From Raja brachyura (Eukaryota): a stretch of 64,000 bases of DNA. The stretch spans positions 5,270,001-5,334,000 of the forward strand of contig OY740810.1 in the NCBI GenBank assembly GCA_963514005.1, given 5' to 3'. A program made the position numbers. Below, piece by piece: positions 38,901 through 59,900 of this stretch (positions are counted from its first letter, which is position 1; each line of letters starts with the position of its first letter).

Positions 38901-41900
38901 TCACCTCCTCTGTCCATCCCAACCCTCCCTCTACCCCAAACCTCACTCCACCCCAGTTGTGCCCCATCCTCTTCCCCAACCACTATCTACACTTTCTCTA
39001 CCACCACCTCAGCCCTCTCTCCATCACCCCCACCCTCTATCCATCACCCCTACCCTCCCTCCAACCCTAACACCCTCCGACTTCAGCCCCGTCCCTACCC
39101 TCCCTCTGACCTCACCCTCCCTCATCTCACTCCTTACCCTTCATTTGACCTCACCGCTTAACCATATCCTCCCTCTAATCTCACTCCCAAACCCTACCCT
39201 CCCTCTTACCTCACCCTTAACACTCTTCTCCCTCTAACCTCACTCCCTACTCTCCCTCTAACCTCACTCACTATCCACACTTTCCCTTTAACCTCATCCC
39301 TTATCTTCCTTCTAACCTCCTCCCTAACCCTACCCTCCCTATAAGATCACTCCATACCCCTACTCTCCCTCTGTCCTCACCCCTTAACTCCTATCTTCCC
39401 TCTAACCTCACTCCCTAACCCTATCCTCCCTCCTCCCTCCGACCCCCCCCCCCCCCTTCTAATCTCACCCCCTAGTCTCCCTCTACCCTGCATGTATAGA
39501 GGGTACCCTACCTGCATCACTACCCTGCATATCTCCCTCTACCCTCCACCCCTCACACCCTCCACCCCTCTCCCTCACTCTCCGTCACGCGGGCGCCCCG
39601 TTTGCGCGCCAAGCCGCCAGTGGGGATTTGACGGTTGGGAGCAGCGGGCGACCAACAACACTCTCTAATTTGGATGAGTGAAGTAATCGCGACGGTTTCT
39701 CAATCCCCGTGGCGGTTACTCTTGTAAACGGGCCAGCGTGTGCGGTTCACGCAAGTAACGGGAGGCGCAGGGTGTCCGATCAATAGTTCGAAAACTCTTT
39801 TTGAGACACGAGTATGACCTTAATAACACTTATAATTTTAGCTCAGATGCTCCATTTCCTTCCCGGAAACCGCATTTCCATCCCAGACCATGCGTGTAGG
39901 TAGGGAAAAGTCCTATTTCTTCCCCCTTGATGTTTAAGAGATTTAGTTATATAGTGTATTTCACTTGGTTTATAACCTGCCTGGGTTTACAATGAGAAGG
40001 GGTTTACAATGAACCCCTTCTCCTCCATACCCCGCAACACTGCCCTCTCTCCCCATTCCCCCACTCACAACAAGGGCAGAGTCCCCCTGGTCCTCACCTT
40101 TCACCCCACCAGCCAGCGCATACAACAGATAGTCCTCCGCCAGTTTCGCCACCTCCAGCGTGACCCCACCACTCGCCACATCTTCCCATCTCCCCCCCTG
40201 TCTGCCTTCCGCAAAGACCGCTCCCTCCGCAACTCCCTTGTCAATTCTTCCCTTCCCTCCCGCTCCACCCCTTCCCCGGGCACTTTCCCTTGCAACCGCA
40301 AGAGATGCTACACTTGTCCCTTCACCTCCCCCATCCACTCCTTTCACGGACCCAAGCAGTCATTCCAAGTCCAACAGAGGTTCACCTGCACCTCCTCCAA
40401 CCTCATCTACTGCATCCGTTGCTCCAGATGCCAGCTGATCTACATCGGTGAGACCAAGCGGAGGCTGGGCGATCGTTTCGCCAAACACCTCCGCTCGGTC
40501 CGCAATAACCAACGCCACCTCCCAGTGGCTCAGCACATCAACTCCCCCTCCCACTCCGTATCCGACCTCTCGGTCCTGGGCCTCCTCCACGGCCAGAGTG
40601 AGCAACACCGCAAGTTGGAGGAACAGCACCTCATATTCCGCTTGGGAAGTCTGCATCCTCTGGGCTTAAACATTGAATTTTCTCAATTCTGTTAACCCAG
40701 ACTGCCCCCTCCCCCTCCCCACCTCTCCCTCAGCCCTCGGGCCCTGACATTCCTTCTCCATCTCCCCCCCCCCCCCACCCAAGTCGCACTAGCTTCTCAT
40801 TTTCACACTACAAACAGCCTACTACAATGGCCTGTTTCCTTTATTATCAATACTTTTTTGCATATCATTCATTGTTCTTTATCTCTCCACATCACTGTCT
40901 ATATCTCTCGTTTCCCTGATCCCTGATCAGTCTGAAGAAGGGTCTCGACCCGAAACGTCGCCTATCTCCTTCGCTCCTTAGATGCTGCTGCACCCGCTGA
41001 GTTTCTCCAGCTTTTTGTGGAACCCCTTACGTACTTGCCTCAAATGAAAACACAGTTCCATTTTATTTTTTGGCACGTGTACCGAGGTACAGTGAAAAGC
41101 TTTTTTGTTGCGTGCTACCCAGTCAGTGGAAAGATAAGGGGTTTGTACAAGATAAAGTCCAAAAAAGTCCGATTAAAGATTGATCGATTTCAGATTGAAA
41201 GCTGACTTACACTGGGGTATCTGGATCGGTGCCCTTCTGGCCACTGAACTCATATCGATATCTGCCTTTATTTAATTATAGATTAAGACCAAAACCTTTG
41301 TGCTTATTTATTTTGTTTTCAATCAGGTTGCTCTTTGTCCAACTGGACCTCAGTGCCAATTAGGTCTTTATCTCACTCGTCATTCTTTTTAAGATCAAGA
41401 GTTCAAGAGAGTTTATTGTCATGTGTTCCAGATAGGACAATTAAATTCTTGCTTTGCTTCAGCACAACAGAATATAGATGGGATGATGGTGTTGGTATCC
41501 CCGCTGCTTCCTGCCATTCTACCCCTCTGTTCTGATCTTTTGGGTAAATCGGTACGTTATATCAATGTCATATGAGACAAGTAACTGTCCTTTAGGATGG
41601 GGGAACATACTAAGCCACATAACCTTTGATAGCCCTACATACACCTGTTTATTCAACCCCCCCAAGGAACATGGATGCTAATTGTGCTTTGTTCCAATTC
41701 CCATTCCCAGGGGATGAAGGGGGTGGATATATAAGGAGTGGTTGAAGAATGGTCTTGACCCGATACATCACCCATTCCTTCTCTCCTGAGTTATTCCAGC
41801 ATTCTGCATCTATCTACATTGTCAGGTCTGCCTGACAGAAATGTGAAATGCACTTTGGATGACAATAGATTAGTATACCATCTGTTTGACTCACTGAAAG

Positions 41901-56900: not shown

Positions 56901-59900
56901 CATGGTTCCTTGAAGGTCGAATTGCAGGTAGATAAGGTGATCAAAAAGGCTTTTGGCCTTCATCAGAGTATTGAGTATAGAAGTTGGGAAGTCATGTTGC
57001 AGTTGTATAAGGCATTGGTGAGACCGCTTTTAGTATATTGTGTTCAGTTCTGGGCACCATGTTATAGGAAAGATATTGTCAATGGGTTCAGAAAAGATTT
57101 ACAAGGATGTTGCCAGAACTAGAGGGTGTGAGCTATCGGGAGAGGTTGAATAGGCTGGGTCTCTATTCCGTGGAGCGTAGGAGGATGAGGGGAGATCTTA
57201 TAGAGATATACAAAATCATGAGAGGAATAGCTCAGGTAGATGCACAGTCTTTTATCCAGAGTAGGGGAATCGAGGACCAGAGGACATAGGTTCAAGGTGA
57301 AGCGGAAAAGATTTAATACGAATCCAAGGGGTAACGTTTTCACACAGAGGGTGGTGGGTGTATGGAACAAGCTGCCAGATAAGGTAGTTGAGGCTGGAAC
57401 TATCCCATTACTTCAAAGTCAAAGTCAAAAGAGTTTATTGTCATGTGTGTAAAGTCAAAAGAGTTTATTGACAGGACAATGAAATTCTTTCTTTGCATAG
57501 CACAACAGAACATACTTGACTACAATTATATACGTAAATACACACATGAATGAATAAATTGATAAAGTGCAAATAACAGATGGAGGGGTATTATTGTTCA
57601 GAGTTTTGACCGAGCGAAGTTTAATAGCCTGATGGCTGTGGGGAAGTAGCTATTCCTGAACCTGGTCGTTGCAATCCTCAGGTTCCTGTACCTTCTACCC
57701 GAATGTAGCAGGGAGATGAATGTGTGGCCAGGGTGGTGTGGGCCCTTGATGATACTGCCAGCCTTTTTGAGGCAGCGACTGTGATAGATCCCCTCGCTGG
57801 AAGGAAGATCAGAGCCGATGATGGACTGGGCAGTGTTTACTACTTTTTGTAGTCTTTTCCTCTCCAGGGCACTCAAGTTGCCGAACCAAGCCACGATGCA
57901 ACCAGTCAGCAAGCTCTCTACTGTGCACCTGTAGAGGTTAGAGAGAGTCCTCCTTGACAAACCGACTCTCCGTAATCTTCTCAGGAAGTAGAGGTGCTGA
58001 TGAGCTTTCTTAATAATTGCATCTGTGTCCTTGGACCAGGAAAGATCTTCATGCACGCCCAGGAATTTGAAGCTCATGACCCTTTCAACCATCGACCCAT
58101 TGATATAAACAGGACTGTGGATCCCCATCCTACTCCTTCCAAAGTTCACAATCAGTTCCTTGGTTTTGCTGGTGTTGAGGGCCAAGTTATTGTGCTGGCA
58201 TCATATAGACAGTTGCTCGATCTCTCTTCTATACTCTGACTTATCCCCATCAGTGATACGTCCCACAACAGTGGTGTCGTCAGCGAACTTGATGATGGAG
58301 TTCGCACTATGACCAGCTATACAGTCATGAATATAGAGTGAGTACAGCAGGGGCTGAGCATGCAGCCTTGAGGTGCTCCCGTGCTGATTGTTATCGAGTC
58401 TGACACATTTCCACCACTGCTTAGGAAACAGTTGGACAGGTACATGGATAGGACAGGTTTGCAGGGTTATGGACCAAGCGCAGGCAAGTGGAACTAGGGT
58501 AGCTGGGACATTGTTGGCCGGTGTGGGCGAGTTGGACCGAAGGGCCTGTTTCCACACTGTATCACTCTACTAGAAACTTTAAGTAATTTATACTTCATCT
58601 CTTTAAGGTATAAACATGAGCATAGATGGGATTACGACCAATCAGTGCTGTATCAATCAAGATCTCTTTTGTAAGGTACATGTTGGACACTTTTATTGGT
58701 TTATTTGTTGCTATGCTAAACATAGCAATTTGGACATATAATACATACAACATGTAAAACATCCTCAGGCATTTCACTGAAATTATAAAAGACAATGGGA
58801 AATTTTAAGTACATAAGGAAATGTCGATCCGATGACCCAAGTCATTGTCAAAGAGATTCAAGACCAAAGTCATGGTTCAATAGAGATTCAAGTAGAGAGG
58901 CGCAGATGCTTAGGGAGGGAGTTCCAAGGCTGAGGGACTAGATAACTGTATAAAGGACAACACAATTCTGTCGTTGGTAGAGCCACTGCCTCACAGCATT
59001 AAAGGCCCAGGTTCGATCCTGACATTGTGTGCTGCCTGTGTGGAGTTTGCACGTGTTCTCCCTGTGACAGCCAGAGTCTCCCCTGGCAGCTCCGATTTCC
59101 TCCTACATCCCAAAGATATGTGGGTTTGGTGACTGACTTCTAAATGTTACAACCTTACCAGAATTTAATTAAACGTTATGTTAAGTCCCACCAAATTGAC
59201 CAATAGAGCAGAGGAAGATGTGGTCAATCACATCAAGCATACAGACTGGCAGCAATGAACAAAGGACAAATTACCATGGTCAAAATCATCCAGGGTCTTA
59301 TTTGCAAATTTGATAAGAGCTATTTCATTGCTTTCTTCATGACTTAAATGAAAAGTCTAATGTACCCAAGCTTGCTAAGGCATCAAGCTATATGGAGCAA
59401 ATAATATTTGAGGAAACAATGTCTGCAAAGAGATAGAAACAGTTTAGCAATTCAGCAAGAGTGAGCTGAAGGGGTATCAAGTAGGAAAATGTAAGATTAT
59501 GTAATTTAATCAAAATAATAGAAAAACAAAATGCTGAGAAATTATTTACCTCTATATCAAGAGTGTATAAACATTGGTGTCTAATTCACCTTCAAGGTAT
59601 TTTGCTGCTTCATTAGGATTGCACTCTTCAATCATGATACTACTGCAACACCACAAATGAATCTTAAAGAAATATTGTTTTTTAATTGACACTCATGACC
59701 AGAGGGGGCAGATCAATCCTGTTTTGTTGCTGGTAATTTGTTGCACAGCTAACTTACAGGGATTCGGCCTTTAAAGTTACTGTGAGGATCAAACCACACA
59801 ACACTGCTCCTTGTGTTGTGGCTGACTGGATAGTGAAAAGGCCAAGGTAATTTACCCAGGTTTAGTGATGGGGGTGAGAAATCCTAATGCATAAAAGAGG

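What the first reader, a model, noticed from the sequence alone, without database searches (positions are those of the whole stretch)
39814..58675. Hidden CatSper-delta gene invisible to the ORF track
Seen: six exons of 58-115 nt scattered through 19 kb of TE debris splice into one open 159-aa frame starting with a hydrophobic signal peptide. Exons 3-6 (77, 73, 115, 68 nt) match the lengths and phases I recall for human CATSPERD, with conserved HPC, VFFT, SW and CC..FC anchors despite low overall identity. Known: CatSper is patchily retained in vertebrates (lost in many teleosts, frogs and most birds) and its auxiliary subunits evolve fast, so they are often mis-annotated. Inference: an intact delta subunit in an internally fertilising cartilaginous fish.
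Basis: partly seen in the sequence, partly recalled or inferred. Interest (0 to 1): 0.7.

Follow-up and report, generated by a model that had tools for sequence, protein, structure and literature searches.

The report
First six exons of CatSper-delta
Six tiny exons scattered through 19 kb of repeat-rich DNA really are the start of the gene for the delta helper subunit of the sperm calcium channel CatSper in a shark or ray, an ordinary gene that public annotation already lists in other rays and skates.

Summary
Six + strand exons (86, 58, 77, 73, 115 and 68 nt; 477 nt in all) lie at 39814-58675. All ten intron ends are GT/AG, every exon is open in its phase, and the three split codons are sense codons.

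The identification as CatSper-delta also holds:
- Exons 4 and 5, searched separately, each hit Pfam PF15020 (CATSPERD beta-propeller) at adjoining profile positions. Ten decoy exons gave 0 of 10 hits.
- The NCBI model of little-skate CATSPERD-like isoform X1 maps onto all 6 of 6 exons in order, ending exactly at the proposed splice sites. This includes the signal-peptide exon (12 of 14 identical) and the three junction residues.
- The skate and electric-ray relatives match mouse CATSPER delta far better than epsilon.
- Mitochondrial Lon protease (LONP1) lies head-to-head upstream.

Only about the first fifth of the protein is in the window, because exon 7 onward lies beyond base 64000. "Intact" is therefore not shown, and the recalled match to human exon lengths was not tested. 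CatSper in cartilaginous fishes has been in print since 2008, and delta-like genes are annotated in three rays, so this is a new member of a known kind.

The parts
39814..39899 (+). Coding exon 1 (86 nt): ATG, hydrophobic signal-peptide-like N-terminus, donor GT
   Evidence: Read directly. An in-frame TGA lies at 39802, and an A stands at -3 from the ATG. Identity to little-skate CATSPERD-like isoform X1 residues 1-14 is 12 of 14 (tblastn E=0.046). No Pfam or homologue-library support for this exon on its own.
42517..42574 (+). Coding exon 2 (58 nt, starts with the last base of a split codon)
   Evidence: AG/GT bounded and open. 16 of 20 identical to skate X1 residues 25-44, E=1.2e-5. The split codon AGT=S matches the skate residue. 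No Pfam hit alone.
44922..44998 (+). Coding exon 3 (77 nt, contains the HPC motif)
   Evidence: AG/GT bounded and open. tblastn to skate E=4e-7, stingray 1.3e-5, electric ray 0.013. No Pfam or PDB hit alone.
50101..50173 (+). Coding exon 4 (73 nt, VFFTRDGF): start of the beta-propeller match
   Evidence: Pfam PF15020 E=4.1e-4, profile positions 28-49. Its only PDB hits at E<=10 are the two CATSPER delta chains 9ubw_G and 7eeb_G. 21 of 25 identical to skate and to stingray.
56190..56304 (+). Coding exon 5 (115 nt)
   Evidence: Pfam PF15020 E=2.9e-3, profile positions 55-89, directly after exon 4's match. phmmer against 1.84 billion proteins gave 4 hits at E<=0.001, of which 3 are elasmobranch CATSPERD-family proteins. 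tblastn to skate E=4e-13. No PDB hit alone.
58608..58675 (+). Coding exon 6 (68 nt, QCCINQDLFCK)
   Evidence: AG/GT bounded. 18 of 23 identical to skate and to electric ray, E about 1e-7. The split codon GGT=G matches the relatives. No Pfam hit alone. The only PDB hit is a chance luciferase match at E=1.6.
58676..64000 (+). Start of intron 6 (at least 5.3 kb), carrying a LINE reverse-transcriptase insertion from about 60840 to the window end; no further CATSPERD exon
   Evidence: ORF listing. RVT_1 at 62466-63041. Skate residues 156-336 and electric-ray residues 127-727 have no match better than E=0.5 anywhere in the window.
35821..36396 (-). First coding exon of the neighbouring mitochondrial Lon protease gene (LONP1), head-to-head with exon 1, start codons 3.4 kb apart. 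The gene runs on the - strand down to at least 9003.
   Evidence: ORF text. Lon_C at 9003-9353 (E=7e-25) and at 13396-13656, and AAA at 19581-19826. The 16 best PDB hits are 'Lon protease homolog, mitochondrial', E=5.5e-24 to 1.1e-23. The exon-1 assignment itself rests on recalled LONP1 features and had no Pfam hit.

Best explanation
These are the first six coding exons of the elasmobranch orthologue of CATSPERD, the delta auxiliary subunit of the sperm-specific CatSper Ca2+ channel. They encode a signal peptide (exon 1), a short N-terminal stretch (exon 2), and roughly the first third of the extracellular beta-propeller (exons 3-6, about Pfam profile positions 2-112 of 329). The gene is transcribed on the + strand, divergently from LONP1. 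Its short exons are separated by 2.3-6.0 kb introns filled with retroelement fragments. The remaining exons (rest of the propeller, Ig-like domain, stem, single transmembrane helix) lie beyond the 3' end of the window.

By inference from mouse work, the protein is a type I membrane protein. Its propeller joins those of the beta, gamma and epsilon subunits in a canopy over the CATSPER1-4 pore, and it is needed for assembly and stability of the channel that drives Ca2+-dependent changes in flagellar beating.

Shown here: exon anatomy, homology, delta rather than epsilon affinity, and the neighbouring gene. Inferred: expression, splicing in vivo, integrity of the unseen part, and function in sperm.
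For: 1. Family signal, exon by exon. 2 of 6 exons hit PF15020 Beta-prop_CATSPERD and nothing else at E<=10: exon 4 at E=4.1e-4 (profile 28-49) and exon 5 at E=2.9e-3 (profile 55-89). The two matches abut as a spliced pair should. 0 of 10 same-length AG/GT-bounded open decoys from the same interval hit any family.
2. Exon 4's only PDB matches at E<=10 are the two CATSPER delta chains, mouse residues 67-87, close to its position in the model.
3. phmmer with exon 5 alone over 1,835,955,588 proteins gave 4 hits at E<=0.001. The 3 examined score 9.4e-56, 2.9e-40 and 1.9e-46 on PF15020. They are NCBI records from Leucoraja erinacea and Hypanus sabinus (both named delta-like) and from Chiloscyllium plagiosum (named 'uncharacterized').
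4. tblastn of skate isoform X1 against the whole window hits 6 of 6 exons in order. HSP ends fall at the proposed splice sites, with per-exon identity of 12/14, 16/20, 20/31, 21/25, 26/39 and 18/23. The split-codon residues S, R and G equal the skate residues at those junctions.
5. Delta, not epsilon. Skate X1 hits only delta chains (9e-21), with no epsilon at E<=1. The 727-aa Narcine bancroftii protein hits delta at 2e-94 and epsilon at 3e-21.
6. Neighbourhood. LONP1 lies head-to-head. In human, LONP1 and CATSPERD lie within one 1.09-Mb duplication on chromosome 19 (PMC7304355, passages read). That they are immediate head-to-head neighbours in human is my recollection.
7. Mechanism. The propellers of beta, gamma, delta and epsilon form the canopy roof (PMC9205950, passages). 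The beta-delta contact is needed for assembly, and truncating the delta ectodomain abolishes the channel in mouse (bioRxiv 10.64898/2026.08.06.743317, abstract).
Against: - No single exon reaches the Pfam gathering score (20.2 and 17.5 bits against 27), and 4 of 6 exons give no Pfam hit alone.
- Exons 3 and 5 give no PDB hit alone, and exon 6 gives only a chance hit.
- Exon 1 rests on a 14-residue match at E=0.046 to one model of one species. No signal-peptide predictor was run.
- Only 159 codons are visible, and nothing shows that the rest of the gene is open.
- A word-based search with exon 5 found no protein sharing three 5-residue words, so no annotated product of this very locus was seen.
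- 3 of the 4 elasmobranch species have only short models (336/319, 204/175 and 278 aa). This could mean poor annotation or real decay.
- No expression data exist here.
Confidence: 0.9

Rival explanations
1. A decaying or truncated CATSPERD locus. The 5' exons are still open, but the gene as a whole is a pseudogene, or it yields only a short propeller fragment without the transmembrane part.
For: The window ends in intron 6 and no later exon is visible. NCBI models in 3 of 4 elasmobranch species are short and lack the C-terminal half: skate 336/319 aa, stingray 204/175 aa, bamboo shark 278 aa. CatSper genes have been lost repeatedly in vertebrates (PMC2572835 and PMC7533707, passages read).
Against: All six exons are open. 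The ATG and all 10 of 10 splice dinucleotides are intact. Amino-acid identity to skate is 65-86% per exon, with the cysteines and the tryptophan kept. This pattern is not expected after long neutral drift (inference; no rate test was possible). The Narcine bancroftii model is full length, with a hydrophobic C-terminal helix and all three Pfam domains. Short models are also what repeat-filled long introns do to gene predictors.
Confidence: 0.08
2. A paralogue rather than delta: CATSPERE (epsilon) or another propeller-bearing CatSper auxiliary subunit.
For: Delta and epsilon share homology (PMC5362262, passages). The Narcine protein also hits epsilon chains, at 3e-21. NCBI names the relatives only 'delta-like'.
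Against: The epsilon match covers only the C-terminal part (query residues 223-722) and is 73 orders of magnitude weaker than the delta match. Over the N-terminal propeller, which is the part encoded in the window, skate X1 hits delta only. Exon 4 also hits delta only. Only PF15020 appears in Pfam scans at E<=10. The LONP1 neighbourhood fits the delta locus (recalled for human).
Confidence: 0.015
3. A chance assembly of open AG...GT segments from repeat-derived sequence, with no gene there.
For: Such segments are plentiful: 13-32 candidates per exon length in 19 kb. The introns are full of retroelement ORFs.
Against: Six colinear matches to a named protein of another species end at the splice sites. 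There are two independent Pfam hits to one family at adjoining positions, and 0 of 10 decoys hit anything.
Confidence: 0.005

Closest known systems
Mouse CATSPERD (Tmem146), chain G of the CatSper complex structures 7EEB and 9UBW/9UBX
   Same: Same family and same region. Exon 4 aligns to mouse residues 67-87. Through the skate protein, the propeller aligns over 266 residues with the cysteine of HPC, VF.T, W and the CC..FC cluster kept. Same order of parts: signal peptide, then propeller.
   Different: Very low direct identity. Exons 3, 5 and 6 find nothing in the PDB on their own. Only the first 159 codons are available for comparison. Exon-intron structure was not compared.
NCBI RefSeq 'cation channel sperm-associated auxiliary subunit delta-like' of Leucoraja erinacea (XP_055514353.1, XP_055514354.1), Hypanus sabinus (XP_059846794.1, XP_059846795.1) and Narcine bancroftii (727 aa); 'uncharacterized protein LOC122565549' of Chiloscyllium plagiosum (XP_043577537.1)
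   Same: Direct orthologue candidates. All window exons align colinearly, at 42-86% identity per exon depending on species. All four models scanned fresh (skate X2, stingray X2, bamboo shark) or with precomputed domains (Narcine) carry PF15020.
   Different: None is identical, so the window comes from another species. The best relative is the skate, at roughly 65-86% per exon. Only skate isoform X1 has the signal-peptide exon. The other five models start later or with a different first exon.
CATSPERE (epsilon), the paralogue of delta
   Same: Same overall architecture and shared C-terminal homology (3e-21).
   Different: There is no detectable match over the N-terminal propeller that the window encodes.

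Membership tests
CATSPERD (CatSper auxiliary subunit delta) | Sequence match to the CATSPERD beta-propeller profile (Pfam PF15020) | tested here: met
   Exons 4 and 5 each hit PF15020 alone (E=4.1e-4 and 2.9e-3; 20.2 and 17.5 bits) at adjoining profile positions 28-49 and 55-89. Each is below the 27-bit gathering score, as expected for 24 and 38 residues. 0 of 10 decoys hit. Transitive support: the window exons match skate, stingray and bamboo-shark proteins that score 190, 139 and 159 bits on PF15020.
CATSPERD (CatSper auxiliary subunit delta) | Closer to delta than to the paralogue epsilon (or to beta and gamma) | tested here: met
   Exon 4: 2 of 2 PDB hits are delta. Skate X1: delta at 9e-21 and no epsilon at E<=1. 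Narcine: delta at 2e-94 against epsilon at 3e-21.
CATSPERD (CatSper auxiliary subunit delta) | N-terminal signal peptide (type I membrane protein) | tested here: inconclusive
   Exon 1 begins with M followed by a run of about 12 mostly hydrophobic residues. It is 12 of 14 identical to the start of skate isoform X1. No signal-peptide predictor is on hand, and the match has E=0.046.
CATSPERD (CatSper auxiliary subunit delta) | Ig-like domain, stem and single C-terminal transmembrane helix (PF23747, PF22850) | not testable with these tools
   These parts lie beyond the window. No match to Narcine residues 127-727 was found in the 64 kb. The Narcine orthologue has them.
CATSPERD (CatSper auxiliary subunit delta) | Conserved gene neighbourhood (LONP1 next to CATSPERD) | tested here: inconclusive
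   On the window side this is met: mitochondrial Lon protease lies on the - strand at 9003-36396, head-to-head. On the human side, both genes lie in one 1.09-Mb segment of chromosome 19 (PMC7304355). Immediate adjacency and orientation in human are recalled, not tested.
   No gene-structure resource is on hand, and human sequence from memory is not to be used. The skate-mouse alignment has only a one-residue insertion and a one-residue deletion across the region of exons 3-6. That fits conserved lengths but does not test the boundaries.
CATSPERD (CatSper auxiliary subunit delta) | Testis or sperm expression, and assembly with CATSPER1-4 and the beta, gamma and epsilon subunits | not testable with these tools
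   No transcript or proteome data for this organism, and the rest of the genome is not available.

The most novel reading that the evidence does not exclude
In part of the elasmobranchs the delta locus may no longer encode a membrane-anchored subunit. It may instead encode a short, secreted propeller-only protein, or it may be on its way to loss. The skate (336 aa), stingray (204 aa) and bamboo-shark (278 aa) models all stop inside or just after the propeller, while the electric ray keeps the full 727 aa. The window, which ends in intron 6, cannot say which kind this species has.
Probability: 0.08. Interest if true: 0.45.

Novelty: new member of a known kind. Interest (0 to 1): 0.15.

Why it matters
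It matters little beyond annotation. It shows that a real, conserved gene can hide from ORF-based tracks when its exons are 58-115 nt long and lie in repeat-filled introns. It also adds one more elasmobranch to the species that keep the delta subunit of CatSper at what appears to be the ancestral LONP1-linked locus.

It supplies a signal-peptide exon that 5 of the 6 public elasmobranch models seen here lack. That could help re-annotate those genes.

CatSper in cartilaginous fishes was reported in 2008 (PMC2572835). CatSperD was surveyed across 271 fish genomes in 2020, using annotated queries from a species set that included elephant shark (PMC7533707). A specialist would therefore not be surprised.

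Tried and rejected
- Pfam scan of whole-frame translations of 58676-64000 failed because the frames contain stops. It was not repeated. An ORF listing and tblastn answered the question instead.
- The word-based homologue search with exon 5 was first too short. After a three-codon extension of the window reference it found nothing.
- The word-based search with the Narcine protein returned only itself.
- PDB searches with exons 3 and 5 alone gave nothing, and exon 6 gave only a chance luciferase hit.
- The Rfam scan of the whole window found no family at gathering score.
- The fourth hit of the representative search (2422 aa, matching only query residues 18-35) was neither fetched nor examined.
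- The chance-assembly and epsilon readings were considered and rejected (see the rival explanations).
- The joined 159-aa peptide was not built, searched or folded. No structure prediction or complex prediction was run, because neither would change the verdict.
Table S1 of PMC2572835, Dataset S2 of PMC7533707 and the figure supplements of PMC5362262 may list which cartilaginous fishes have CatSperD, but I could not see them.

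
Full report
**What is in the sequence.** The window has no N and a eukaryotic, repeat-rich character.

| Exon | Coordinates | Length | Note |
|---|---|---|---|
| 1 | 39814-39899 | 86 nt | begins with ATG |
| 2 | 42517-42574 | 58 nt | |
| 3 | 44922-44998 | 77 nt | HPC |
| 4 | 50101-50173 | 73 nt | VFFT |
| 5 | 56190-56304 | 115 nt | SW |
| 6 | 58608-58675 | 68 nt | CC..FC |

- Every intron begins with GT and ends with AG behind a pyrimidine-rich tract. The introns measure 2617, 2347, 5102, 6016 and 2303 nt.
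- The phases fit, the three split codons are AGT (S), AGG (R) and GGT (G), and the total is 477 nt, or 159 codons.
- An in-frame TGA lies four codons upstream of the ATG, and an A stands at -3.
- Each exon lies in a stop-to-stop frame of only 30-55 codons. That is why an ORF list shows nothing there.

**Is it more than chance?** Open AG...GT segments of these lengths are common in the interval. One search lists 29, 19, 32 and 13 for the four internal lengths, so an open spliced frame alone proves nothing. Homology decides the matter.

I never joined the exons into one peptide for a search, a fold or a printout.

- Against Pfam at E<=10, 2 of the 6 exons gave a hit, both to PF15020 (CATSPERD beta-propeller) and to nothing else. 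Exon 4 scored E=4.1e-4 at profile positions 28-49, and exon 5 scored E=2.9e-3 at positions 55-89. The two matches are adjoining and in order.
- Exons 1, 2, 3 and 6 gave nothing.
- Ten decoy segments of the same two lengths, also AG/GT-bounded and open, gave 0 of 10 hits.
- Against the PDB, exon 4's only two matches at E<=10 are CATSPER delta chains (7eeb_G residues 67-87, and 9ubw_G).
- Exons 3 and 5 found nothing in the PDB, and exon 6 found only a chance match.

**Relatives.**
- A word-based search with exon 5 found nothing.
- A full phmmer pass of exon 5 (38 aa) over 1.84 billion representative proteins gave 4 hits at E<=0.001. I examined three of them.
- On PF15020 the three score 9.4e-56, 2.9e-40 and 1.9e-46.
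- They are NCBI records: 'cation channel sperm-associated auxiliary subunit delta-like' of Leucoraja erinacea and of Hypanus sabinus, and 'uncharacterized protein LOC122565549' of Chiloscyllium plagiosum.
- A further search added the 727-aa delta-like protein of Narcine bancroftii.
- The fourth hit (2422 aa, an 18-residue match) was not examined.

**Mapping the relatives back to the window.** tblastn of skate isoform X1 (336 aa) against all 64 kb on both strands hits all 6 exons in order:

| Exon | Skate residues | Window coordinates | Identity | E-value |
|---|---|---|---|---|
| 1 | 1-14 | 39814-39855 | 12/14 | 0.046 |
| 2 | 25-44 | 42515-42574 | 16/20 | 1.2e-5 |
| 3 | 40-70 | 44907-44999 | 20/31 | 4e-7 |
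| 4 | 70-94 | 50099-50173 | 21/25 | 2e-8 |
| 5 | 95-133 | 56190-56306 | 26/39 | 4e-13 |
| 6 | 133-155 | 58607-58675 | 18/23 | 2e-7 |

- The best hit away from the exons has E=0.23.
- The alignments stop at the proposed splice sites. The residues encoded by the three split codons (S, R, G) are the residues the skate protein has at those points. This confirms the splice model, the first exon included.
- Stingray, electric-ray and bamboo-shark proteins map to the same exons.
- Skate residues 156-336 and electric-ray residues 127-727 find nothing in the window. From about 60840 to the end the + strand carries a LINE reverse-transcriptase insertion. Exon 7 and everything after it therefore lie outside the window.

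**Delta or epsilon?** Skate X1 hits only the delta chains in the PDB (9e-21) and no epsilon chain at E<=1. The full-length Narcine protein hits delta at 2e-94 over residues 29-718. It hits epsilon at 3e-21 over its C-terminal part only. That fits the published C-terminal homology of the two subunits (PMC5362262, passages read). In the skate-mouse alignment, the cysteine of HPC, the VF.T motif, the tryptophan and the CC..FC cluster are kept.

**Surroundings.**
- The - strand from 9003 to 36396 carries a Lon protease gene. Lon_C matches at 9003-9353 (7e-25) and 13396-13656, and AAA matches at 19581-19826. Further exon-like pieces were spotted by recalled motifs.
- The 16 best PDB matches of one exon are 'Lon protease homolog, mitochondrial'.
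- Its first coding exon faces exon 1 of the delta gene, with the start codons 3.4 kb apart.
- In human, LONP1 and CATSPERD lie in one 1.09-Mb duplicated segment (PMC7304355, passages). That they are immediate head-to-head neighbours there is my recollection. If so, the arrangement would be ancient and would support orthology.

**Organism.** I do not take this window for human. Its nearest relatives are elasmobranch proteins at 42-86% identity per exon, and none is identical. The source is therefore most likely another elasmobranch species. I did not try to name it.

**How it most likely works.** By homology, the product is a type I membrane protein. In the mouse complex, the propellers of the beta, gamma, delta and epsilon subunits form the canopy roof above the CATSPER1-4 pore (PMC9205950, passages). 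The beta-delta contact is an early, required step of assembly, and loss of the delta ectodomain abolishes the channel and male fertility in mouse (bioRxiv 10.64898/2026.08.06.743317, abstract only). The window encodes the signal peptide and roughly the first third of that propeller. Expression, in vivo splicing and function in elasmobranch sperm are inferences.

**What is not shown.**
- 'Intact' cannot be claimed from 159 of about 730-800 codons.
- Three of the four elasmobranch species have only short models. Long repeat-filled introns probably explain this, but real truncation is not excluded.
- The claimed identity of exon lengths with human CATSPERD was not tested.
- No signal-peptide predictor was run.

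**Novelty.**
- CatSper sequences in Callorhinchus milii and Leucoraja erinacea were reported in 2008 (PMC2572835, passages).
- A 2020 survey used annotated CatSper1-4 and CatSperB, G, D and E proteins as queries across 271 fish genomes. The query species included Callorhinchus milii (PMC7533707, passages).
- NCBI already names delta-like genes in three rays.
- My searches for CatSper with shark, with elasmobranch, and for CATSPERD with Callorhinchus found no paper on delta in elasmobranchs specifically. The supplements that might list it are closed.

This is a correct call of an ordinary gene: a new member of a known kind, of low interest. It has modest value for re-annotating the signal-peptide exon, which 5 of the 6 public elasmobranch models seen here lack.

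Noticed in passing
window 9003-36396, - strand: A near-complete mitochondrial Lon protease (LONP1) gene, head-to-head with the CatSper-delta gene. Exon-like pieces lie at 9003-9353, 13396-13656, 15235-15369, 15616-15870, 16071-16265, 19581-19826, 24441-24662, 24992-25165, 30044-30463 and 35821-36396. Only three pieces have Pfam support; the rest were recognised by recalled motifs.
   Followed up: partly
window 39976-40692 (+) and 19817-20383 (+): Two copies of an ORF with a cysteine-rich stretch followed by a GIY-YIG nuclease motif. One lies in intron 1 of the delta gene and the other inside the LONP1 gene. The first hits Pfam GIY-YIG (E=8.4e-5); the second gave no hit at E<=0.01. This is the kind of nuclease carried by Penelope-like retroelements (recalled).
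   Followed up: partly
window 39148-39432: A C/T-rich minisatellite (period about 30 nt, about 10 copies, 68% matches). It lies 400-650 bp upstream of the delta start codon, inside a strongly C-skewed stretch at 38000-42000.
   Followed up: no
window 53310-53834 (-): A 175-codon open frame in intron 4 with no Pfam hit. Its text looks like the end of a retroviral integrase followed by a membrane-spanning stretch (recalled resemblance only).
   Followed up: no
window 57601-58200 (-), with similar text at 5383-5952 (+) and 42604-42933 (-): ORFs from the tail of a LINE-type reverse transcriptase. The first hits Pfam ALKBH8_N (E=4.3e-10), a small domain model that evidently also matches retroelement tails.
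   Followed up: no
window 42503-42517: An intronic ATG lies in frame just upstream of exon 2. A gene predictor without transcript evidence could start there and miss the true signal-peptide exon. Several public elasmobranch models start near this point in the protein.
   Followed up: partly
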